A stretch of 36,219 bases of DNA from IMG/VR virus record IMGVR_UViG_2571042636_000009; one strand, 5' to 3'. This DNA comes from a virus (Duplodnaviria; Heunggongvirae; Uroviricota; Caudoviricetes). This document shows, piece after piece, positions 9,094 to 35,539 of this stretch. Position numbers and translations under genes: made by a program. The stretch's first letter is position 1; each line of letters starts with the position of its first letter. The notes under the pieces are model-generated. The model ran no database searches and was not told the DNA's origin. It saw nothing but the letters and a program-made list of their open reading frames with translations.

Positions 9094-10116
9094 ATGCCCT
9101 GTATTTCGCTGTGGTATAATAGTTGCGCAATTGATACAAGGGAGCGTTACATCGTGAAAATTGTTTTCGAGGTTAATGGAAAGAAAGTTCCACTAAAATC
9201 TTTAAAATACATAAGCAAAAAAGATCAACTCGAAGTAATGAAAAACTGGTTCTTTGAAAACTTTGAAGATCCGGCAAATGCTTGTCCGTATGAAAGTAGA
9301 GAAGGTGGCTATGCTTACATATATGGCGGGCCGTATGATGCGAGCGAAGAACTACAATCCATCTTCGGTCAATATGTTAAATCTGAGTATATTGAGGAAT
9401 TAGTAGATGAATTACAAACACAATGTTTTGACTGGTCTGGAAACTCAAATAATATAGATGATTGGTACGATGATGATATCTACGACGCTGTAACGTCTTC
9501 CGGTAATCCGTATTTAAAATTCATTGATAATATCGATAAAATAAAAAAACTTGCAAAAGATAAAACTGAACAACAGCAAAAAAACCACTTGCTTAGTTTG
9601 CTCTACACGAATGTTATTACAGCTTTGGAAACGCTTTATGTTGAGCTATTCATTAATTCTATAGAGAAAGATGATGTCTACATAGCCAATTGTATAGAAA
9701 AAGGTAAGACTGAATTTAAAGTAAGCAAAGATATTGCTGCGTTGCCTTTCAAGGGTGAACCCATCGAGAAAATTAGGGGAGAGCTAATCAGGTCAATCAA
9801 GGAACACTTGATCAGTGCAAGCTGGCATAGCACTAAAAAGGTAATCGACCGCTATGAAGCTACATTCGATATAAAAGTACAAAAAGACTGTCCGATAGAA
9901 GCTATTGAATTGGCAACCCTCAATCGAAATCACTTAGTGCATCGTGGTGGAAAGGATAAAGAAGGGAACCTCGTAGTGATTACAGACCAGGATCTTGAAA
10001 CGCTGATTGAAAATGCATCGAACCTGGCAATTATGCTCTACAACAGTTTAAATGTAGCAACGAATAAAACCACCATTTTGCAACCAGATGACAAACCGTT
10101 CATTCATGAATTTTAA
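9094..10116 (+). CDS. Candidate defense/toxin-module protein A with a C-terminal HEPN-like Rx4H motif (predicted RNase-type domain)
   Basis: 340-aa ORF (AAGGAGG 6 nt before the ATG at 9094; alternative GTG start at 9154 giving 320 aa). Strongly AT-rich compared with the flanks. Motif RNHLVH near the C-terminus matches the HEPN Rx4-6H signature. No named family recognised. Confidence 0.6.
   Translation: MPCISLWYNSCAIDTRERYIVKIVFEVNGKKVPLKSLKYISKKDQLEVMKNWFFENFEDPANACPYESREGGYAYIYGGPYDASEELQSIFGQYVKSEYIEELVDELQTQCFDWSGNSNNIDDWYDDDIYDAVTSSGNPYLKFIDNIDKIKKLAKDKTEQQQKNHLLSLLYTNVITALETLYVELFINSIEKDDVYIANCIEKGKTEFKVSKDIAALPFKGEPIEKIRGELIRSIKEHLISASWHSTKKVIDRYEATFDIKVQKDCPIEAIELATLNRNHLVHRGGKDKEGNLVVITDQDLETLIENASNLAIMLYNSLNVATNKTTILQPDDKPFIHEF
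9112..9120 (+). promoter_or_regulatory. Candidate extended -10 promoter element (TGgTATAAT) at the 5-prime edge of the AT-rich insert
   Basis: TGGTATAAT is a perfect extended -10; its position would fit the GTG start at 9154. It conflicts with the ATG start at 9094, so either the element or the longer start is wrong. Confidence 0.35.
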
Positions 10117-25816: not shown

Positions 25817-27324
25817 TGGCAATTCTTGATGATGTGATTGGCGTTTTTTCACCAGGATGGAAAGCGGCAAGGCTGCGTTCCCGTGCGGTGATCCAGGCTT
25901 ATGAGGCCGTAAAAACGACGCGGACACACAAAGCCCGACGGGAGAACCGAACTGCCGACCAGTTAAGCCAGTACGGGGCCGTGTCGTTACGTGAGCAGGC
26001 CCGTTACCTTGATAACAACCACGATCTGGTTATTGGTGTATTTGACAAGCTGGAAGAACGGGTGGTGGGGAAAAACGGGATTATTGTCGAGCCACATCCG
26101 GTATTACGCAATGGGGCCATTGCCCGTGACCTGGCTGCGGAGATTCGCACCCGATGGAGTGAATGGTCTGTCAGCCCGGAAGTCACCGGGCAGTTTACCC
26201 GTCCGATGCTGGAACGTCTGATGCTTCGTACCTGGCTGCGCGATGGTGAGGTGTTTGCCCAGATGGTTTCCGGGCGCATAAACAGCCTGACGCCTTCTGC
26301 CGGTGTTCATTTCTGGCTGGAGGCGCTCGAGCCGGACTTTATTCCCATGACCAGTGATGAGAGCAACAGGCTGAATCAGGGCGTGTTTGTTGATGACTGG
26401 GGGCGTCCCGAAAAATATCTGGTGTATAAAAGCCGTCCCGTATCCGGACGGCAGATGGAAACCAAAGAAGTGGATGCAGAGCGAATGCTGCATCTTAAAT
26501 TTGTTCGCCGTCTGCACCAGATGCGCGGGACGTCTTTATTGTCCGGTGTGCTGATCCGCCTCAGTGCTCTGAAAGAGTATGAAGATTCTGAGCTGACTGC
26601 AGCAAGGATCGCCGCTGCTCTGGGGATGTACATCCGGAAAGGCGACGGGCAGAGCTATGAAGCGGATGGTAATGGCAGCAAGGATAAGGAACGCGAGCTT
26701 ACCATTCAGCCAGGCATTATTTACGATGATCTGAAACCCGGCGAAGAAATCGGAATGGTGAAGTCGGATCGCCCCAATCCTAACCTTGAAACTTTTCGTA
26801 ATGGTCAGTTGCGTGCCGTGGCGGCGGGCAGTCGTCTGAGTTTTTCCAGTACAGCGCGCAACTATAACGGCACTTACAGCGCCCAGCGTCAGGAGCTGGT
26901 TGAATCCACTGATGGCTACCTGATCCTGCAGGACTGGTTTATTGGTGCCGTCACCCGTCCGATGTATCGTGCCTGGCTGAAACAGGCTGTGGCATCCGGT
27001 GTTATCAGGCTACCCCGCGATCTTGACCGTTCTTCACTGTATACCGCGGTGTATTCCGGACCGGTGATGCCGTGGATTGACCCTGTTAAGGAGGCTGAGG
27101 CCTGGAAAATCCAGATTCGTGGTGGAGCGGCGACAGAATCAGACTGGGTACGTGCTGGTGGTCGTAATCCGGATGATGTCAAACGTCGGCGCAAGGCCGA
27201 AATTGATGAAAACCGCAAACTGGATCTGGTATTTGATACCGATCCGGCCAGTGATAAAGGAGGCAGCAGTGCCGCAACGAAACGACATGAGCCGCAGCAC
27301 ACCGACGACCAGTCCGAAGAATAA
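25816..27324 (+). CDS. Portal protein (lambda gpB-like)
   Basis: 502-aa ORF overlapping the W stop (TGATG), in the canonical position after the large terminase and W. Confidence 0.8.
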   Translation: MAILDDVIGVFSPGWKAARLRSRAVIQAYEAVKTTRTHKARRENRTADQLSQYGAVSLREQARYLDNNHDLVIGVFDKLEERVVGKNGIIVEPHPVLRNGAIARDLAAEIRTRWSEWSVSPEVTGQFTRPMLERLMLRTWLRDGEVFAQMVSGRINSLTPSAGVHFWLEALEPDFIPMTSDESNRLNQGVFVDDWGRPEKYLVYKSRPVSGRQMETKEVDAERMLHLKFVRRLHQMRGTSLLSGVLIRLSALKEYEDSELTAARIAAALGMYIRKGDGQSYEADGNGSKDKERELTIQPGIIYDDLKPGEEIGMVKSDRPNPNLETFRNGQLRAVAAGSRLSFSSTARNYNGTYSAQRQELVESTDGYLILQDWFIGAVTRPMYRAWLKQAVASGVIRLPRDLDRSSLYTAVYSGPVMPWIDPVKEAEAWKIQIRGGAATESDWVRAGGRNPDDVKRRRKAEIDENRKLDLVFDTDPASDKGGSSAATKRHEPQHTDDQSEE

Positions 27325-29296
27325 TTCCTGGTTCAGGATGCAGGCTGGTCACCAGAGTGACGCGGATATTTATATTTATGACGAGATTGGTTTCTGGGGT
27401 GTTACAGCGAAGCAGTTTATCAGTGATCTGAATGCACTGGGCGATATCACCCACATTAATCTCCATATTAATTCACCGGGTGGCGATGTCTTTGAAGGCA
27501 TCGCCATTTTTAATGCGCTGAAAACACATGGTGCGTCCATTACCGTTTATGTCGACGGTGTGGCGGCGTCAATGGCGTCGGTCATTGCGATGGTGGGAAA
27601 CCCGGTCATTATGCCGGAAAACACCTTCATGATGATTCATAAACCATTTGGCTTTACGGGCGGTGATGCGGAGGACATGCGCACCTATGCCGACCTGCTC
27701 GATAAAGTTGAGGCGGTTCTGTTACCCGCTTATGCACAGAAAACCGGGAAAACCACCGATGAAATTGCTGCCATGCTGGCGGATGAGACCTGGATGTCCG
27801 GTGCCGAATGTCTGGCACATGGATTTGCTGATCAGGTAACGCCAGCCGTTAAGGCAATGGCATGTATTCAGTCAAAACGTACAGAGGAATTTAAAAAGAT
27901 GCCGGAATCCATTCGAAACATGATTACTCCGCCACGCAACAGTGCTCCACGCGTACAGGATAATGAACCTGAAGCCTCCCGGACGCCAGTGCAGGCAGCA
28001 GCACCCGTGGTGGATGAAAACAGCATCCGTGCGCAGGTACTGGCAGAGCAAAAAGCGCGTGTAAACGGTATTAATGATCTGTTTGCCATGTTTGGCGGGC
28101 GTTATCAGACGCTGCAGGCTCAGTGTCTTGCCGATCCTGAATGTTCGCTGGAGCAGGCCCGCGAAAAGCTGTTGAACGAGATGGGGCGCGAGTCCACGCC
28201 ATCCAATAAAAATACCCCGGCTCATATTTATGCCGGTAACGGTAATTTTGTGGGGGACGGGATCCGCCAGGCGCTGATGGCGCGTGCCGGATTTGAAAAA
28301 ACCGAACGTGATAATGTTTACAACGGGATGACCCTGCGTGAATATGCCCGTATGTCACTAACTGAACGGGGTATTGGGGTTTCCGGTTATAACCCGATGC
28401 AGATGGTCGGTGCGGCGTTCACACACAGTACGTCTGACTTCGGTAATATTCTGCTGGATGTTGCGAACAAAGCCATTCTGCAGGGCTGGGAAGATGCCCC
28501 TGAAACCTATGAACAGTGGACGCGGAAAGGTCAGTTGTCTGATTTTAAAATTGCCCATCGTGTGGGTATGGGTGGCTTCAGTGCTCTGCGTCAGGTGCGT
28601 GAAGGGGCGGAATATAAATACGTCACCACCGGAGATAAACAGGCCACTATTGCACTGGCGACCTATGGCGAGCTGTTCAGTATCACCCGTCAGGCCATTA
28701 TCAATGATGATCTGAATATGCTGACCGATGTCCCGATGAAACTGGGCCGTGCGGCGAAATCCACTATTGCCGATCTGGTTTATGCCATTCTGACGTCTAA
28801 CCCGAAAATCTCCACAGATAATGTAAGTCTGTTCGATAAAGCGAAACATGCAAACGTACTGGAGAGCGCTGCAATGGACGTGGCATCGCTGGATAAAGCC
28901 CGCCAGTTGATGCGCGTTCAGAAAGAGGGGGAGCGTCATCTGAATATTCGTCCTGCGTTCGTACTGGTACCGACGGCGATGGAGTCTGTTGCTAACCAGG
29001 TCATTCGCTCCTCAAGTGTCAAGGGGGCTGACATTAACGCCGGTATTATTAACCCGGTGAAAGATTTTGCGACCGTTATTGCAGAGCCTCGTCTTGATGA
29101 TAACAGCCAGACCACCTTCTACCTGGCTGCGTCAAAAGGCTCCGATACGATTGAAGTGGCTTATCTCAACGGTGTGGATACGCCATATATTGATCAGATG
29201 GAGGGCTTCAGTGTGGATGGCGTGACAACGAAAGTGCGTATTGACGCCGGTGTCGCGCCAGTTGATCACCGCGGTCTGGTGAAATGTACGGCGTAA
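27269..29296 (+). CDS. Prohead protease (ClpP/S49-like) fused to major capsid protein
   Basis: 675-aa ORF with AAAGGAGG 6 nt before the GTG at 27269. The N-terminal 200 aa look like a ClpP/S49 peptidase (NSPGGDVFEGIAIFNAL, VDGVAASMASVIAMVG); the rest is capsid-sized. Followed by a strong terminator. Confidence 0.75.
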   Translation: MPQRNDMSRSTPTTSPKNNSWFRMQAGHQSDADIYIYDEIGFWGVTAKQFISDLNALGDITHINLHINSPGGDVFEGIAIFNALKTHGASITVYVDGVAASMASVIAMVGNPVIMPENTFMMIHKPFGFTGGDAEDMRTYADLLDKVEAVLLPAYAQKTGKTTDEIAAMLADETWMSGAECLAHGFADQVTPAVKAMACIQSKRTEEFKKMPESIRNMITPPRNSAPRVQDNEPEASRTPVQAAAPVVDENSIRAQVLAEQKARVNGINDLFAMFGGRYQTLQAQCLADPECSLEQAREKLLNEMGRESTPSNKNTPAHIYAGNGNFVGDGIRQALMARAGFEKTERDNVYNGMTLREYARMSLTERGIGVSGYNPMQMVGAAFTHSTSDFGNILLDVANKAILQGWEDAPETYEQWTRKGQLSDFKIAHRVGMGGFSALRQVREGAEYKYVTTGDKQATIALATYGELFSITRQAIINDDLNMLTDVPMKLGRAAKSTIADLVYAILTSNPKISTDNVSLFDKAKHANVLESAAMDVASLDKARQLMRVQKEGERHLNIRPAFVLVPTAMESVANQVIRSSSVKGADINAGIINPVKDFATVIAEPRLDDNSQTTFYLAASKGSDTIEVAYLNGVDTPYIDQMEGFSVDGVTTKVRIDAGVAPVDHRGLVKCTA

Positions 29297-30973: not shown

Positions 30974-31717
30974 ATGACCACACCAAATCCACTGGCAAAA
31001 ACGAAAGGTGCGGGAACGACGTTCTGGATGTACACCGGCAAGGGCGATGCGTTTGCGAACCCTTTATCGGACACTGACTGGCTGCGTCTTGCGATGGTGA
31101 AGGATCTGCAACCTGGCGAAATGACCGCTGATGCAGAAGATGACACTTATCTCGATGATGAAGATGCAGACTGGAAAACGACAACACAGGGGCAGAAATC
31201 CGTCGGTGATACTTCGGCGACGCTGGCCTGGCGTCCGGGTGACAGCGGACAGAAAAAACTGGTTCAGTTGTTCGACTCCGGTGAAGTCTGCGCGTTTCGT
31301 ATCAAATATCCCAACGGCACTGTTGATGTTTTCCGTGGCTGGCTGAGCTCACTGGGTAAAACCATTGCCTCAAAAGACGTGATGACCCGCACAGTGAAAA
31401 TCAGCGGTGTGGGGCGTCCGTATCTGGCAGAGGAAGGCACTGAAACAGTGAGCGTTACCGGGCTGACGGTGGCACCGGCATCTGCCAGTGTAAAAGTGGG
31501 AGCAACCACCACGCTGACCTTTACAGTAAAACCTGACGGAGCCAGTGACAAAGCGATCAGTGTGCATTCGACAGATCCACAGACTGCCACGGTGACCCTG
31601 AACGGGCTTGTGGCCACGGTGAAAGGCGTGAAGCAGGGCAGTGTCAGCATTGTGGGCATGACTTCTGACGGCGATTTTGTGGCAGTGGCTGCGGTGGCTG
31701 TCAGCGCCGCAGGTTAA
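30974..31717 (+). CDS. Major tail protein V-like with C-terminal Ig-like (Big_2) domain
   Basis: 247-aa ORF with AAGGAGG RBS; C-terminal Ig-like repeat (TVAPASASVKVGATTTLTFTVKPDGASDKAISVHSTDPQTATVTLNG); followed by a terminator. Confidence 0.8.
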   Translation: MTTPNPLAKTKGAGTTFWMYTGKGDAFANPLSDTDWLRLAMVKDLQPGEMTADAEDDTYLDDEDADWKTTTQGQKSVGDTSATLAWRPGDSGQKKLVQLFDSGEVCAFRIKYPNGTVDVFRGWLSSLGKTIASKDVMTRTVKISGVGRPYLAEEGTETVSVTGLTVAPASASVKVGATTTLTFTVKPDGASDKAISVHSTDPQTATVTLNGLVATVKGVKQGSVSIVGMTSDGDFVAVAAVAVSAAG

Positions 31718-31737
31718 CAGGACGATACTCATCATTT

Positions 31738-31762
31738 GCCCCGGTTATCCGGGGCTTTTTTG
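31738..31762 (+). terminator. Rho-independent terminator after the major tail gene
   Basis: CCCCGG-TTAT-CCGGGG followed by a T-run; it overlaps the longest track ORF for G, which supports the later G start at 31775. Confidence 0.6.
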
Positions 31763-31774
31763 CAGGTGGAGAAC

Positions 31775-32164
31775 ATGATGTTTCTGAAACAGGGCACGTT
31801 TAATTATGAAAAGCAGTCCGTGGTGCTCAGTGAGCTGTCCGGGCTGCAGAGAATTGAATATCTGGCGTTTGTTCAGCAGCGAACGGCAAAGTTTGATGCC
31901 GAAGAGGGAGAACTGCCGGAGGCTGAACGACAGATTGCTTTTCTGCGGATGGGGATGGATATCAATGCCTGGCTGGTTTCCCGCTCACTGTGGAATGCGG
32001 AACAGTCTCAGGATGTTGAGACGCTTTGCGCATCCGTTATTACAACATGGTCGTATGATGCCCTGGGAGCGGGGGCGGAGATGGTTCTGTCGCTGAGCGG
32101 TATGGGAGCCATTGAGAATGCCGGGGATTTGGAGCATGAGGTGCTGACGCCGGAAAAGTCCTGA
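31775..32164 (+). CDS. Tail assembly chaperone G-like
   Basis: 129-aa ORF (MMFLKQGTFNYEK...) with AGGTGGAG RBS, between the major tail and tape-measure genes. Confidence 0.75.
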   Translation: MMFLKQGTFNYEKQSVVLSELSGLQRIEYLAFVQQRTAKFDAEEGELPEAERQIAFLRMGMDINAWLVSRSLWNAEQSQDVETLCASVITTWSYDALGAGAEMVLSLSGMGAIENAGDLEHEVLTPEKS

Positions 32165-32172
32165 CGCGGGAA

Positions 32173-32502
32173 ATGCAGTTTGTCATGCGGCTTGCCCGGG
32201 AGTTCCGGCGGGCAGACTGGCGGCGGATGCTGTCGGAAATGTCGGCCACTGAGCTTGGTGAGTGGGGCGATTATTTCCGGATGCAGAGCTTCAGTGATGT
32301 GTGGATGGATGCGCAGTTTGCCTCGCTGAAGGCATTGATCGTGAGAATGGTGTCCGGTAGCAGTGATGCTGCGGTGGCTGATTTCAGCCTTTTACCGGAA
32401 GAGAACGGGATACCGGAGCGAACGGACGAAGAACTGATGCATCTTGGGGAAGGTATTTCCGGAGGTGTGCGTTATGGACCAGATAGCCAACCTGGTCATT
32501 GA
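32173..32502 (+). CDS. Tail assembly chaperone T-frame segment (expected to be expressed as a G-T fusion by -1 frameshift)
   Basis: The -1 frame relative to G is open from 32140 to 32502 and overlaps the G 3-prime end by 25 nt. The only slippery-like sequence in the overlap is CCGGAAAAG (32149-32157). Confidence 0.55.
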   Translation: MQFVMRLAREFRRADWRRMLSEMSATELGEWGDYFRMQSFSDVWMDAQFASLKALIVRMVSGSSDAAVADFSLLPEENGIPERTDEELMHLGEGISGGVRYGPDSQPGH

Positions 32503-35500
32503 TTTGGGGATTGATGCGGCAGAGTTTAAAAATGAAATTCCCCGTATCAAAAACCTTCTGAATGGTGCAGCCAGCGATGCAGAACGGTCTTCTGCCCGTA
32601 TGCAGCGTCTTATGGAGCGTCAGACTCAGGCCGCCCGGCAGACAATGCAGGCGGCTTCTTCGGCTGCAACAGCCGCATCCGTCCATGCGCAGACGGTGGA
32701 GAAGAGCGCACAGGCTCATGAACGCATGGCCCGCGAGGTGGAGCAAACCCGCCAGCGTATGGAGGCACTGAGCCAGAAAATGCGCGAGGAACAGGCGCAG
32801 GCCATGGCTCTGGCGGAGGCTCAGGATAAAGCGGCTGCCGCGTTTTATCGTCAGATTGACAGTGTGAAACAGGCCAGTGCGGGGCTGCAGGAATTACAGC
32901 GTATTCAGCAGCAGATCCGACAGGCCAGAAACAGTGGCGGGATTGGTCAGCAGGATTATCTGGCGCTGATTTCTGAGGTTACGGCGAAAACCCGTGTTCT
33001 TACGCAGGCTGAGGCAGAGGCTACCCGACAGAAAGTGGCGTTTATCCGTCAGCTTAAAGAGCAGGCAACCCGCCAGAATCTTTCTTCTTCTGAGTTGCTT
33101 CGTGCTAAGGCTGCCCAGCTGGGGGTAAGCAGTGCTGCAGAAGTGTATATCCGCAAAATGGAGCAGGCAGGAAAAGCCACGCATTCGCTGGGTCTGAAAA
33201 GTGCAGCGGCCCGCCAGGAGATAGGCGTTCTGATAGGTGAACTGGCTCGCGGCAATTTAGGTGCGCTGAGGGGATCCGGGATAACGCTGGCTAACCGTGC
33301 CGGATGGATAGACACACTGATGTCACCGAAAGGCATGATGCTGGGCGGGGTTATTGGCGGTATTGCCGCGGCCGTCTATGGTCTGGGTAAAGCCTGGTAT
33401 GATGGTCAGAAGGAGGGGGAAGAATTTAACCGCCAGTTGTCGCTGACGGGGCATTATGCCGGAGTCACTGCCGGGCAGCTGTGGACGCTCAGTCGTGCTA
33501 TTGCCGGGAATGGTATTACGCAACATGCTGCAGCCGGTGCGCTGGCTCAGGTGGTGGGGAGTGGTGCATTTCGTGGAAACGATATCGGTATGGTGGCGAG
33601 AGCTGCCGCACAGATGGAGCGATCGGTTGGCCAGTCGGTCAGCGATACCATAAATCAGTTTAAGCGGCTGAAGGATGATCCTGTAAATGCCGCGAAGGCT
33701 CTGGACAATGAGCTGCATTTTCTTACTGCCACTCAGCTTGAACAGATACGCGTCCTTGGGGAACAGGGGCGGTCCAGTGATGCGGCACGGATAGCCATGT
33801 CTGCACTGGCAGAGGAAACCGGTCGGCGTACTGCGGATATTGATAATAACCTCAATGCGCTGGGCAGTACGCTGAAGTATCTGTCTGATTTATGGAGTCG
33901 TTTCTGGGATGCGGCCATGAATATTGGTCGTGAAGACTCGCTGGATGAACAGATTTCCGCTTTACAGGAGAAAGTGTCGCGGGCGAAAAGACTCCCCTGG
34001 ACGGCATCATCTTCTCAGGTTGAGTACGATCAGCAGCGTCTTAACGAGCTTCAGGAGAAAAAACGCCAGAAGGATTTGCAGGATGCAAAAGAGCAGGCAG
34101 AGCGGAATTATCAGGAGCAACAGAAACGCCGTAATGCTGAAAATGCTGCACTGAACCGGATGAATGAAACGGAAGCAGCACGACATCAGCGTGAAATTGC
34201 GCGTATTAATGCCATGCAGTACGCCGATCAGGCTGTCAGGGATGCGGCGATACAACGTGAAAATGAACGTTACGAGAAAGCCCTGGCATCCGGTAAGAAA
34301 AAAACACGCGAACCCCGTAATGATGAGGCCACCCGGTTATTGCTGCAGTACAGTCAGCAACAGGCACAGGTGGAAGGACAGATTGCTGCTGCAAGACAGT
34401 CAGCAGGCATTGCCACGGAAAGGATGACAGAAGCGCATAAACAGCTTCTGGCTCTGCAGCAGCGCATCAGCGATCTGGACGGGAAAAAACTGACGGCAGA
34501 TGAAAAGAGTGTGCTGGCCCGTAAAGATGAACTGATTCAGGCACTGACGCTGCTGGATGTAAAACAGCAGGAGCTTCAGAAACAGACGGCACTCAACGAT
34601 CTGAAGAAAAAAACAATTCAGCTGACCAGTCAACTGGCTGAAGAAGAGCGCGCTCAGCGTCAGCAACATGACCTGGATATCGCCACGGTGGGTATGGGTG
34701 ATCAGCAGCGGCAGCGATATCAGGTACAACTGAGTCTTCGCCAGAAATACCAGCAACAGCTGGAGCAGTTGAGGCGGGATAGTGAGCAGAAAGGGACATA
34801 TAACACGGATGACTACAGAAAGGCCGAGCAGGCGCTGACGGAGAGCCTGAACCGACAACTGAATGAGAATCGCCGTTACTGGCAACAGCTTGAAGTTGTG
34901 CAGGGTAACTGGAAAAACGGAGTCCTGCGTGCATTTCAGGATTTTACCGTGGATGCAGACAATACGGCAGGAACAGCAGAACAGGTGTTCTCATCAGCCT
35001 TCAGCAACATGGGAAATGGCCTGGCAACTTTTGTCACTACCGGCAAACTCAACGTCAAATCCTTCACCTCTTCGGTGCTGTCAGATATGGCGAAAATCCT
35101 GGCGCAGGCAACCATGATGAAATCGATAAAAGGGATTGGCAGTGTACTGGGATTTGATCTCAGCAGCCTTTCCCTGAATGCCAATGGGGGGATTTATCAG
35201 TCTGCTGATTTGAGTCGTTACAGTGGCACGGTGGTTAACCGTCCGACGTTTTTTGCTTTTGCAAAAGGCGCGGGTGTGATGGGGGAAGCTGGACCTGAAG
35301 CCATTCTGCCACTGCGTCGTGGTGCTGACGGTAAGCTGGGGGTTGTGGCGGATATTGGTGGTTCAGGTATGGCGATGTTTGCCCCGCAGTACAACATCGA
35401 GATCAATAACGATGGCACGAACGGGCAGATAGGTCCGGCTGCCCTGAAGGTGGTTTATGACCTTGGGAAAAAAGCGGCAGCGGACTTTATGCAACAGCAG

Positions 35501-35539
35501 GCCCGTGATGGTGGTCGGTTAAGTGGAGCATATCGGTAA
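32474..35539 (+). CDS. Tail tape measure protein (gpH-like)
   Basis: 1021-aa ORF with GGAGG RBS; long Ala/Gln/Glu/Arg-rich coiled-coil-like sequence; located between G/T and M. Confidence 0.85.
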   Translation: MDQIANLVIDLGIDAAEFKNEIPRIKNLLNGAASDAERSSARMQRLMERQTQAARQTMQAASSAATAASVHAQTVEKSAQAHERMAREVEQTRQRMEALSQKMREEQAQAMALAEAQDKAAAAFYRQIDSVKQASAGLQELQRIQQQIRQARNSGGIGQQDYLALISEVTAKTRVLTQAEAEATRQKVAFIRQLKEQATRQNLSSSELLRAKAAQLGVSSAAEVYIRKMEQAGKATHSLGLKSAAARQEIGVLIGELARGNLGALRGSGITLANRAGWIDTLMSPKGMMLGGVIGGIAAAVYGLGKAWYDGQKEGEEFNRQLSLTGHYAGVTAGQLWTLSRAIAGNGITQHAAAGALAQVVGSGAFRGNDIGMVARAAAQMERSVGQSVSDTINQFKRLKDDPVNAAKALDNELHFLTATQLEQIRVLGEQGRSSDAARIAMSALAEETGRRTADIDNNLNALGSTLKYLSDLWSRFWDAAMNIGREDSLDEQISALQEKVSRAKRLPWTASSSQVEYDQQRLNELQEKKRQKDLQDAKEQAERNYQEQQKRRNAENAALNRMNETEAARHQREIARINAMQYADQAVRDAAIQRENERYEKALASGKKKTREPRNDEATRLLLQYSQQQAQVEGQIAAARQSAGIATERMTEAHKQLLALQQRISDLDGKKLTADEKSVLARKDELIQALTLLDVKQQELQKQTALNDLKKKTIQLTSQLAEEERAQRQQHDLDIATVGMGDQQRQRYQVQLSLRQKYQQQLEQLRRDSEQKGTYNTDDYRKAEQALTESLNRQLNENRRYWQQLEVVQGNWKNGVLRAFQDFTVDADNTAGTAEQVFSSAFSNMGNGLATFVTTGKLNVKSFTSSVLSDMAKILAQATMMKSIKGIGSVLGFDLSSLSLNANGGIYQSADLSRYSGTVVNRPTFFAFAKGAGVMGEAGPEAILPLRRGADGKLGVVADIGGSGMAMFAPQYNIEINNDGTNGQIGPAALKVVYDLGKKAAADFMQQQARDGGRLSGAYR

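What the first reader, a model, noticed from the sequence alone, without database searches (positions are those of the whole stretch)
32140..32175. G-T tail chaperone overlap with a non-canonical candidate slippery site (CCGGAAAAG)
The T frame is open in the -1 frame across the last 25 nt of G, as expected for the conserved G-T programmed frameshift. The overlap does not contain the lambda heptamer GGGAAAG; the only candidate is GAAAAG, at which an AAG-to-AAA lysine slip could occur. Either this phage uses an unusual shift site, or T is initiated independently at the ATG at 32173.
Basis: partly seen in the sequence, partly recalled or inferred. Interest (0 to 1): 0.4.

Follow-up and report, generated by a model that had tools for sequence, protein, structure and literature searches.

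The report
Tail chaperone G-T frameshift site GGAAAAG
This is the ordinary lambda-type programmed -1 frameshift that fuses tail chaperone G to T, using the heptamer G_GAA_AAG, a variant that is common in related prophages and already annotated in phages N15, phi80 and LLS.

Summary
G (31778..32164) ends at TGA 32162. The -1 frame carrying the T domain is open from 32140, so the overlap is 25 nt. It contains no GGGAAAG; the only slip-prone motif is G_GAA_AAG (32152..32158).

Comparative data favour the frameshift reading. The heptamer lies at the position homologous to lambda's G_GGA_AAG, differing by one base. In 33 divergent lineages it keeps a fixed, gap-free register with the T ORF. 27 of the 33 carry G_GAA_AAG, and its three synonymous positions are 90-100% conserved, against 30-48% at flanking third positions. 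Other relatives carry A_AAA_AAG, C_CCA_AAA or G_GGA_AAG at the same spot.

The ATG at 32173 has no usable Shine-Dalgarno sequence and is CTG in most lineages. Independent initiation is therefore unlikely to be the main route.

GenBank already marks GGAAAAG as the -1 slippery sequence in N15, phi80 and LLS, and Gifsy-1 T is described as a frameshift product. Records of this clade (mEp460, cdtI, Ayreon, RefSeq E. coli) annotate T as a separate gene, which looks like an annotation gap. I found no conserved RNA stimulator. No experimental test of this heptamer in a phage was found in the papers I could reach.

Low novelty, low to moderate interest.

The parts
30974..31717 (+). Major tail protein V gene (lambda gpV type with a C-terminal Big_2 domain), immediately upstream of G
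   Evidence: Pfam Phage_TTP_12 E 6e-67 and Big_2. The start is taken from the Ayreon, mEp460 and RefSeq annotations mapped onto the window.
31738..31764 (+). Intrinsic-terminator-like hairpin plus T-run between V and G
   Evidence: Seven G-C pairs followed by TTTTTTG. It is annotated as a terminator in Ayreon and mEp460, and N15 annotates a putative rho-independent terminator stem-loop at the corresponding place.
31778..32164 (+). Gene G, tail assembly chaperone (128 aa), zero-frame product
   Evidence: Pfam Phage_TAC_2 E 1.7e-39. RefSeq gpG has the same coordinates. SD duplex -6.4 kcal/mol at 5 nt spacing.
32138..32143 (+). SD-like GAGGTG, 8 nt upstream of the heptamer; a possible stimulator that is not conserved
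   Evidence: Anti-SD duplex -6.9 kcal/mol in the window. The family median is -3.5 against -2.8 background, p = 0.046. Close relatives carry GAGGCG instead.
32140..32164 (+). G/T overlap: the 25 nt in which both the G frame and the -1 frame are open
32152..32158 (+). Proposed -1 slippery heptamer G_GAA_AAG (P-site GAA to GGA, A-site AAG to AAA)
   Evidence: It is positionally homologous to lambda G_GGA_AAG. It is present in 56 of 66 unique junctions and 27 of 33 divergent lineages, in fixed register. The same heptamer is annotated as the slippery sequence in N15, phi80 and LLS.
32158..32502 (+). T-domain coding part read after the shift. The predicted GT is join(31778..32158, 32158..32502), 241 aa, with junction ...VLTPEK/VLTREMQF...
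   Evidence: Translation. Pfam Phage_tail_T E 5e-15. The join has the same architecture as the phi80 gpG-T and LLS gene 11 joined CDSs.
32173..32175 (+). ATG used as the T start in public annotation; probably just an internal Met codon of GT
   Evidence: It is annotated as the start in mEp460 and RefSeq. The SD duplex is -4.3 kcal/mol at 0 spacing, which is background level. Gifsy-1, Citrobacter, N15 and lambda have CTG at this position.
32474..35539 (+). Tape measure gene H, which overlaps the end of T by 29 nt
   Evidence: Pfam TMP_2, Tape_meas_lam_C and TMP_4. Strong SD GGAGGTG, -10.8 kcal/mol at 6 nt spacing.

Best explanation
A small fraction of ribosomes translating gene G slip back one nucleotide on G_GAA_AAG (32152..32158) and continue in the -1 frame to the stop at 32500. 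They produce a 241-aa G-T fusion (...TPEK-VLTREMQF...). Most ribosomes terminate at TGA 32162 and produce the 128-aa G. With GAA in the P site and AAG in the A site, tRNA-Lys (anticodon mnm5s2UUU) re-pairs perfectly from AAG to AAA. tRNA-Glu (mnm5s2UUC) re-pairs from GAA to GGA, keeping the first and third positions and forming a G-U pair in the middle. This is lambda's G_GGA_AAG site with one substitution. By analogy with lambda, G and the G part of GT bind the tape measure protein H, the T part recruits the major tail protein V, and the low shift rate sets a high G:GT ratio. Shown here: the gene identities, the frames, the positional homology of the heptamer, its nucleotide-level conservation, and the lack of an RBS for T. 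Inferred: that the shift actually occurs, its efficiency, which tRNAs slip, and the function of the products.
For: 1. Gene order Z-U-V-G-T-H-M with Pfam matches to the lambda families.
2. The -1 frame after the heptamer reads GKVLTREMQFVMRLARE, against lambda GKVFDGELSFALKLARE. The heptamer therefore aligns codon-for-codon with lambda G_GGA_AAG.
3. Gifsy-1 is only 56% identical in G and has diverged flanks, yet it keeps ACGCCGGAAAAGTCCTGA exactly.
4. Among 66 unique junctions from genomes and viral contigs, 56 have in-frame G_GAA_AAG, 5 have G_GGA_AAG, and the rest have A_AAA-type variants.
5. In 33 lineages less than 90% identical to each other, heptamer positions 1, 4 and 7 (all third-codon positions in G) are 100%, 100% and 90% conserved. 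Flanking third positions are 30-48% conserved. The preceding codon varies (GCG, CCG, CTG, TTG, ACG, GTG) but always ends in G.
6. The alignment from -15 to +95 is gap-free in all 33, while the sequence further upstream diverges and the overlap length varies. The heptamer is thus in fixed register with T.
7. Overlaps as short as 16 nt (L063, L045) leave room for nothing but the heptamer.
8. Canonical heptamers occupy the same position in other relatives: A_AAA_AAG in Stx2_14040 and C_CCA_AAA in Vibrio phages.
9. N15, phi80 and LLS records annotate GGAAAAG as the -1 slippery sequence, and phi80 and LLS carry joined CDSs. Gifsy-1 T is annotated as made by frameshifting.
10. A_AAG is the most shift-prone tetramer in E. 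coli (PMC4066793). The PRFect paper discusses G:U pairing in GAA-to-GGA re-pairing at a phage slippery motif, GGGGGAA, and lists a 'twofour' motif class that GGAAAA appears to fit (PMC10885494).
11. T has no usable SD, whereas G and H do.
Against: There is no direct protein evidence for GT in this phage. I found no accessible paper with an experimental test of G_GAA_AAG in any phage. In a reconstituted E. coli system, G GAA AAG was used as the poorly slippery control and gave mainly zero-frame product, because of the second-position mismatch of tRNA-Glu on GGA (PMC6924986). Without a stimulator, A_AAG tetramers are near background in vivo (PMC4066793). I found no significant or conserved downstream structure and no conserved upstream SD. 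All public records of this clade annotate T from its own ATG.
Confidence: 0.85

Rival explanations
1. T is made as a free 109-aa protein by independent initiation, or by termination-reinitiation, at ATG 32173, as the public annotations show. In that case the GGAAAAG motif is irrelevant in this clade.
For: An in-frame ATG lies 8 nt after the G stop codon, close enough for reinitiation in principle. mEp460, RefSeq/PGAP and a cluster of at least 1148 database proteins annotate T from this ATG. The heptamer is intrinsically weak in vitro.
Against: The best anti-SD duplex upstream of the ATG is -4.3 kcal/mol with zero spacing. About 40% of random 22-mers from the window bind at least about as strongly (-4.0 kcal/mol or lower). 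G scores -6.4 at 5 nt spacing and H scores -10.8 at 6 nt. The ATG is CTG (Leu) in Gifsy-1, Citrobacter, N15, lambda and most lineages, so it cannot be the family's start. The T-frame codons between the heptamer and the ATG are conserved as coding sequence, for example a Glu codon that varies between GAA and GAG. In lambda, the G part of GT is what tethers T to the tape measure protein (review PMC5009743). A minor extra contribution from reinitiation cannot be excluded.
Confidence: 0.07
2. The same GT product is made, but by single-tRNA slippage. Only tRNA-Lys slips on A_AAG, either in the A site as in the hexanucleotide CGA_AAG sites, or as peptidyl-tRNA in the P site while the next codon or the nearby stop codon is decoded slowly. 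Re-pairing of tRNA-Glu plays no role.
For: A_AAG alone supports -1 shifting, and NNA_AAG hexanucleotide sites are used by IS1222 and occur in B. subtilis cdd (PMC5009743; PMC4066793). Relatives with G_GCA_AAA_TAG cannot re-pair the P-site tRNA beyond the first base and have a stop codon directly after the slip codon. The G stop codon lies 0, 1 or 5 codons after the heptamer.
Against: Heptamer position 1 is G in 33 of 33 lineages even though it is a synonymous third position behind six different codons. In the canonical relatives, positions 1 and 2 are also identical to each other (A_A, C_C). This is what is expected if first-base re-pairing of the P-site tRNA matters. The product is identical under both models, so sequence alone cannot separate them.
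Confidence: 0.2
3. The frame change is made at the RNA level by transcriptional slippage of RNA polymerase on the A run.
For: The heptamer contains a run of four A residues.
Against: From general knowledge, productive transcriptional slippage needs considerably longer homopolymer runs; I did not test this here. The conserved feature is a frame-specific heptamer that includes the flanking G residues, not the length of the A run. Lambda's homologous site has only three A residues.
Confidence: 0.01

Closest known systems
Phage lambda G / G-T programmed -1 frameshift at G_GGA_AAG (Levin, Hendrix and Casjens 1993; Xu, Hendrix and Duda 2004, 2013, 2014, as cited in PMC5009743)
   Same: Same gene families (Phage_TAC_2 and Phage_tail_T). 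Same position between V and H, same -1 direction, and a slip site at the homologous codon pair near the end of G. The A-site slip AAG to AAA is the same, and T has no RBS of its own.
   Different: The P-site codon is GAA (Glu) rather than GGA (Gly), so re-pairing on GGA needs a middle-position G-U pair. The overlap is 25 nt rather than 64 nt, and the G stop lies 1 codon rather than 5 codons after the site. G is about 33% identical and T about 38% identical to lambda.
N15 genes 14/15, phi80 gpG-T and phage LLS genes 11/12, where the GenBank records mark GGAAAAG as the -1 slippery sequence
   Same: The identical heptamer in the same frame and at the same position. In phi80 and LLS, joined CDSs use the architecture predicted here.
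   Different: T is only about 41-45% identical. In those phages the G stop lies 5 codons downstream and there is no ATG after the site. In the sources I could read, the evidence there is also at the annotation level.
Salmonella prophage Gifsy-1 STM2596/STM2595
   Same: The nearest named relative outside the clade: 56% identity in G and 65% in T. The 18-nt junction ACGCCGGAAAAGTCCTGA is identical, and T is annotated as part of gpG made by translational frameshifting.
   Different: It has CTG where the window has ATG 32173, and the overlap is 31 nt.
A_AAG tetramer and NNA_AAG hexanucleotide -1 sites (IS1222 G_CGA_AAG, B. subtilis cdd A_CGA_AAG)
   Same: The A-site tRNA-Lys slip on A_AAG, with a P-site codon that does not fit the X_XXY rule.
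   Different: Those sites have CGA in the P site, and IS1222 uses a downstream stimulator. Here the P-site codon can re-pair through a G-U pair, and no stimulator was detected.
E. coli dnaX A_AAA_AAG with an upstream SD and a downstream stem-loop
   Same: AAG as the A-site codon. In this window only, an SD-like GAGGTG lies 8 nt upstream of the site.
   Different: No significant downstream hairpin was found. The SD-like element is not conserved in relatives. The expected efficiency is a few percent rather than about 50-80%.

Membership tests
Lambda-type G/GT tail assembly chaperone frameshift | Two ORFs lie between the major tail protein gene and the tape measure gene, with the second in the -1 frame and overlapping the end of the first | tested here: met
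   V 30974..31717, G 31778..32164, -1 ORF open 32140..32502, H 32474..35539.
Lambda-type G/GT tail assembly chaperone frameshift | Homology of the two ORFs to lambda gpG and gpT | tested here: met
   Pfam Phage_TAC_2 E 1.7e-39 and Phage_tail_T E 5e-15. Alignment with lambda and Gifsy-1 T.
Lambda-type G/GT tail assembly chaperone frameshift | A canonical X_XXY_YYZ slippery heptamer in the overlap | tested here: not met
   G_GAA_AAG departs from the rule at position 3 (A instead of G). It still occupies the homologous position, and it fits the rule if a G-U pair is allowed.
Lambda-type G/GT tail assembly chaperone frameshift | The slip site is conserved at the nucleotide level, in fixed register with the downstream ORF, across relatives | tested here: met
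   27 of 33 lineages carry G_GAA_AAG and all 33 carry an A_AAG- or A_AAA-type site at the same column. The alignment is gap-free. Synonymous positions in the heptamer are 90-100% conserved against 30-48% nearby.
Lambda-type G/GT tail assembly chaperone frameshift | The downstream ORF has no translation start of its own | tested here: inconclusive
   An ATG exists at 32173, but without a usable SD (-4.3 kcal/mol at 0 spacing), and it is not conserved. Reinitiation after the G stop cannot be excluded by sequence alone.
Lambda-type G/GT tail assembly chaperone frameshift | A G-T fusion protein is made at a low, fixed ratio to G and is required for tail assembly | not testable with these tools
   This needs a western blot, mass spectrometry or a reporter assay, plus genetics.
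dnaX-type stimulated -1 frameshift | A downstream stem-loop or pseudoknot 5-9 nt after the heptamer | tested here: not met
   Fold z-scores of -0.77 and -1.09. The consensus fold of the 33 lineages is -1.35 kcal/mol with no covarying pair. No Rfam match.
dnaX-type stimulated -1 frameshift | An upstream SD-like sequence at a stimulatory distance | tested here: inconclusive
   GAGGTG lies 8 nt upstream in the window (-6.9 kcal/mol), but it is not conserved across the family (median -3.5 against -2.8 background, p = 0.046).
Z_ZZN tetramer / NNA_AAG hexanucleotide -1 sites | An in-frame A_AAG that allows cognate A-site re-pairing of tRNA-Lys | tested here: met
   GAA AAG is in the G frame at 32153..32158.

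The most novel reading that the evidence does not exclude
G_GAA_AAG may not be a degraded copy of lambda's heptamer. It may be the preferred, selected set-point for G:GT stoichiometry in enterobacterial lambdoid phages. On this reading it works in vivo at about a percent or more with no RNA stimulator, through a middle-position G-U re-pairing of tRNA-Glu. That would be notable because the same sequence serves as the 'non-slippery' control in reconstituted translation. Separately, the clade-specific ATG at 32173 might add a little free T by reinitiation.
Probability: 0.3. Interest if true: 0.35.

Novelty: already known. Interest (0 to 1): 0.15.

Why it matters
The practical consequence is for annotation. 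Every public record of this very common E. coli prophage type that I examined lists T as a free-standing gene starting at an ATG that is probably internal. The type is present in 1849 of 5426 complete genomes. The predicted 241-aa GT fusion is absent from a collection of about 15 billion proteins. Tools that search only for X_XXY_YYZ heptamers will miss this site. There is also a small point for frameshifting biology. The heptamer that biochemists use as a poorly slippery control is the commonest natural G-T site among the relatives retrieved here. Measuring its in vivo efficiency would show how much P-site mismatch a low-level programmed shift tolerates. Nothing here changes the understanding of tail assembly.

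Tried and rejected
- **Downstream RNA stimulator.** Single-sequence folds of 32159..32260 and 32120..32240 are no more stable than shuffles. The consensus fold of 33 lineages shows no structure and no covariation.
- **Rfam.** An E-value scan of 31650..32600 gave only a chance lncRNA hit.
- **Conserved upstream SD stimulator.** One is present in the window, but there is at most marginal enrichment across the family.
- **RBS for T.** None found.
- **Chance occurrence of the motif.** GGAAAAG is not rare in the window (10 against 6.5 expected), so the argument rests on position and conservation only.
- **Exact look-up of the predicted GT fusion.** Starting at either candidate start codon, it is not in the protein collection.
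- **Literature.** Xu et al. 2004 (Mol Cell), Licznar et al. 2003 (EMBO J), Xu et al. 2014 (JMB) and Rotman et al. 2012 (phi80) are not held. I could therefore not check whether GGAAAAG was tested experimentally or tabulated there. Full-text searches for GGAAAAG with frameshift and tape measure found nothing relevant.
- **Transcriptional slippage.** Rejected on the short A run and on the frame-specific conservation of the heptamer.
- **Minus-strand ORFs over the site** (for example 32040..32249). I took these to be spurious overlaps of conserved plus-strand genes; they were not tested.

Full report
**1. The observation**

The window around 32140..32175 reads ...CAT GAG GTG CTG ACG CCG GAA AAG TCC TGA CGC GGG AAA TGC.... 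A script confirmed four things:
- The ORF matching lambda gpG runs 31778..32164, with its stop TGA at 32162.
- The -1 frame is closed by TGA at 32137..32139.
- The -1 frame is then open from 32140 to TGA at 32500.
- The overlap is therefore 25 nt, GGTGCTGACGCCGGAAAAGTCCTGA.

ATG 32173 is in the -1 frame. GGGAAAG is absent from the overlap. Of the in-frame heptamers there, only G_GAA_AAG (32152..32158) allows cognate A-site re-pairing.

The heptamer is not rare in itself. It occurs 10 times in the window against 6.5 expected from shuffles. Any significance must come from its context.

**2. Gene identities and source**

Pfam identifies the following:

| Gene | Pfam match | E-value |
|---|---|---|
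| G | Phage_TAC_2 | 1.7e-39 |
| -1 ORF | Phage_tail_T | 5e-15 |
| Upstream gene | lambda-type tail tube protein with a Big_2 domain | |
| Downstream gene | lambda-type tape measure protein | |
| Flanking genes | Z, U and M homologues | |

The gene order is lambda's Z-U-V-G-T-H-M.

The DNA belongs to the mEp460 / cdtI / Ayreon group of lambdoid phages:
- It is 99.8% identical to phage Ayreon, and 97.6-99.8% identical across 17 phage records.
- It is 100% identical to a prophage of E. coli 214-4.
- It is present in 1849 of 5426 complete E. coli genomes.

None of the records I opened joins G and T. mEp460 and RefSeq/PGAP start T at ATG 32173, and Ayreon starts it even later. The T protein starting at that ATG sits in a 1148-member database cluster named "phage tail assembly protein T". 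The predicted fusion is not in the collection at all.

**3. Homology of the site**

After the heptamer the -1 frame reads G-K-V-L-T-R-E-M-Q-F-V-M-R-L-A-R-E. Lambda reads G-K-V-F-D-G-E-L-S-F-A-L-K-L-A-R-E after its proven G_GGA_AAG. The two heptamers align codon for codon and differ by one base, GGA against GAA in the P-site codon.

Gifsy-1 is only 56% identical in G and has a divergent G tail. It nevertheless keeps ACGCCGGAAAAGTCCTGA exactly. It has CTG where the window has the ATG.

**4. Comparative survey**

An alignment of three T domains was used to fetch 68 loci from one-genome-per-species contigs and 80 from viral contigs. Unique junctions broke down as follows:

| Heptamer | Unique junctions (of 66) |
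|---|---|
| G_GAA_AAG, in the G frame | 56 |
| G_GGA_AAG | 5 |
| G_GCA_AAA followed by TAG | 2 |
| G_GGA_AAA followed by TAG | 1 |

The two remaining loci are doubtful: L072 has no such heptamer, and in L073 the script picked C_GCA_AAA 13 codons before the stop. I excluded both when selecting the 33 lineages.

I then reduced the set, together with lambda, Gifsy-1 and N15, to 33 lineages less than 90% identical around the site. These include Citrobacter, Kluyvera, Kosakonia, Enterobacter, Klebsiella, Providencia, Edwardsiella, Sodalis and others. In this set:
- 27 of 33 carry G_GAA_AAG.
- Heptamer positions 1, 4 and 7 are all third-codon positions in G. They are 100%, 100% and 90% conserved.
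- The five third positions just upstream are 30-48% conserved.
- The codon before GAA varies (GCG, CCG, CTG, TTG, ACG, GTG), encoding five different amino acids, but always ends in G.

A MAFFT alignment from -15 to +95 is gap-free in all 33. Upstream of that, the G tails diverge in sequence and the overlap ranges from 16 to 163 nt. The 16-nt overlaps (L063, L045) leave no room for any other site.

Further relatives fetched from the phage collection carry canonical heptamers at the same position: A_AAA_AAG in Stx2_14040 and C_CCA_AAA in Vibrio phages K245 and HY01. mEp043 and HK225 again carry G_GAA_AAG.

This is the pattern expected of a selected frameshift site. It also suggests a working rule for the family: positions 1 and 2 are identical to each other, so first-base P-site re-pairing is preserved; position 3 is tolerant; and the A site is A_AAG or A_AAA.

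The survey has a bias. The loci were retrieved with patterns derived from three seed sequences, so the proportions are not an unbiased census.

**5. Independent initiation**

| Start | Best anti-SD duplex (kcal/mol) | Spacing (nt) |
|---|---|---|
| T, ATG 32173 | -4.3 | 0 |
| G | -6.4 | 5 |
| H | -10.8 | 6 |

About 40% of random 22-mers in the window bind at least about as strongly as the T site, at -4.0 kcal/mol or lower. The ATG column is CTG (Leu) in most lineages. The conserved Glu codon just before it varies synonymously between GAA and GAG, as coding sequence does.

Independent initiation is therefore not the family's mechanism and is unlikely to be the main route here. The ATG lies only 8 nt after the G stop codon, so low-level reinitiation cannot be excluded from sequence alone.

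**6. Stimulators**

- Folding of the downstream 100 nt gives z-scores of -0.77 and -1.09 against shuffles.
- The consensus fold of the 33 lineages is -1.35 kcal/mol with no covarying pair.
- Rfam finds nothing.
- The window has an SD-like GAGGTG 8 nt upstream of the heptamer (-6.9 kcal/mol). Close relatives have GAGGCG, and across the family the enrichment is marginal (p = 0.046).

I treat this element as a possible, unproven and non-conserved modulator.

**7. Mechanism and its weak point**

From established knowledge of E. coli tRNAs:
- tRNA-Lys (mnm5s2UUU) reads both AAG and AAA.
- tRNA-Glu (mnm5s2UUC) on GGA would pair at positions 1 and 3 and make a G-U pair at position 2.

Published findings bear on this as follows:
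- The review PMC5009743 records A_AAG as the classic E. coli -1 tetramer. [quoted passage not shown]
- Sharma et al. found A_AAG to be the best tetramer, reaching 5.6% with a strong pseudoknot, but near background without one (PMC4066793).
- Peng et al. used exactly AUG GAA AAG as the less slippery control and saw mainly zero-frame product (PMC6924986).
- The PRFect paper lists a "twofour" motif class, which GGAAAA appears to fit, and discusses G:U pairing in GAA-to-GGA re-pairing at a phage slippery motif, GGGGGAA (PMC10885494).

The site is therefore expected to be weak. That fits a system needing only a few percent fusion, but the actual in vivo rate is unknown.

Single-tRNA slippage would give the same product. 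The invariant G at position 1 argues for a contribution from P-site re-pairing. The G_GCA_AAA_TAG relatives show that it is not absolutely required.

**8. What is already known**

- GenBank record NC_001901 (N15) carries a misc_feature "slippery sequence for -1 translational frameshift" at 10027..10033, which reads GGAAAAG.
- FN582354 (phi80) has the same feature plus a joined gpG-T CDS.
- PQ299149 (LLS) says "minus-one programmed translational frameshift site GGAAAAG" and has a joined CDS.
- HK225 and mEp237 name the product GT.
- Gifsy-1 T is described as made by frameshifting.

The kind of site, the exact heptamer and its role are thus already recognised. What is missing is the annotation for this clade and, as far as I could find, an experimental measurement.

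**9. Verdict**

The best explanation is a lambda-type -1 programmed frameshift at G_GAA_AAG producing GT (confidence about 0.85). It is already known in kind and in exact motif. Interest is low, apart from the annotation gap and the unmeasured efficiency of a heptamer that in vitro work treats as non-slippery.

Noticed in passing
window 31738-31764: A strong intrinsic-terminator-like hairpin (7 G-C pairs plus a T-run) sits between the major tail gene V and G. It is annotated as a terminator in Ayreon and mEp460, and N15 has a putative terminator stem-loop at the same place. It may lower transcription of G, T and H relative to V.
   Followed up: partly
window 32455-32502: The strong SD (GGAGGTG) and the ATG 32474 of the tape measure gene H lie inside the codons for the conserved C-terminal GGVRYG motif of T. 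T and H overlap by 29 nt, so one stretch serves as a conserved T peptide and as the H ribosome binding site.
   Followed up: partly
window 32138-32151 and the homologous columns of alignment A3: The G tail just before the slip site carries a conserved peptide pattern, acidic-x-x-(T/S)-(A/P/L)-E-K. The GA at positions -14 and -13 is 96% and 93% conserved across 33 lineages. It could be a functional end of G, a nascent-peptide effect or an mRNA effect on shifting; I did not test this.
   Followed up: no
L014, L016, L046, L028, L063 (Kluyvera, Ewingella, Providencia prophages): In some relatives the slip codon is followed directly by the G stop codon (G_GCA_AAA_TAG, G_GGA_AAA_TAG, G_GAA_AAG_TAG). 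In the G_GCA_AAA_TAG cases the P-site tRNA cannot re-pair beyond its first base. This suggests a stop-assisted single-tRNA slip.
   Followed up: partly
L159 (Stx2_14040), L158 and L162 (Vibrio phages K245, HY01): Different canonical heptamers occupy the homologous position in other G-T relatives: A_AAA_AAG, as in dnaX, and C_CCA_AAA. None of these records annotates a joined CDS.
   Followed up: partly
L048-L054, L056-L060 and L067-L071 (genome-contig hits): Lambda-type G-T junction sequence, identical over the stretch compared, turns up on short, mostly low-coverage contigs. These assemblies are labelled Kitasatospora, Neobacillus, Oceanobacillus, Shewanella, Pseudomonas, Paenibacillus, Enterococcus and others. 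The most likely cause is lambda DNA contamination or spike-in. E. coli prophage sequence also appears in MAGs labelled Bacillota, Proteobacteria and Geobacteraceae (L007, L012, L043).
   Followed up: no
window 27287-29296: A single long ORF combines a ClpP-type protease domain (Pfam CLP_protease, E 3e-36) with a phage major capsid domain (Phage_capsid_4, E 3e-54). It looks like a prohead protease-capsid fusion gene.
   Followed up: partly
window about 32376-32393 (mEp460 NC_019716 9389..9406): The mEp460 record annotates a rho-independent terminator inside the T coding region. The simple terminator scan of 31600..32600 found nothing there.
   Followed up: no
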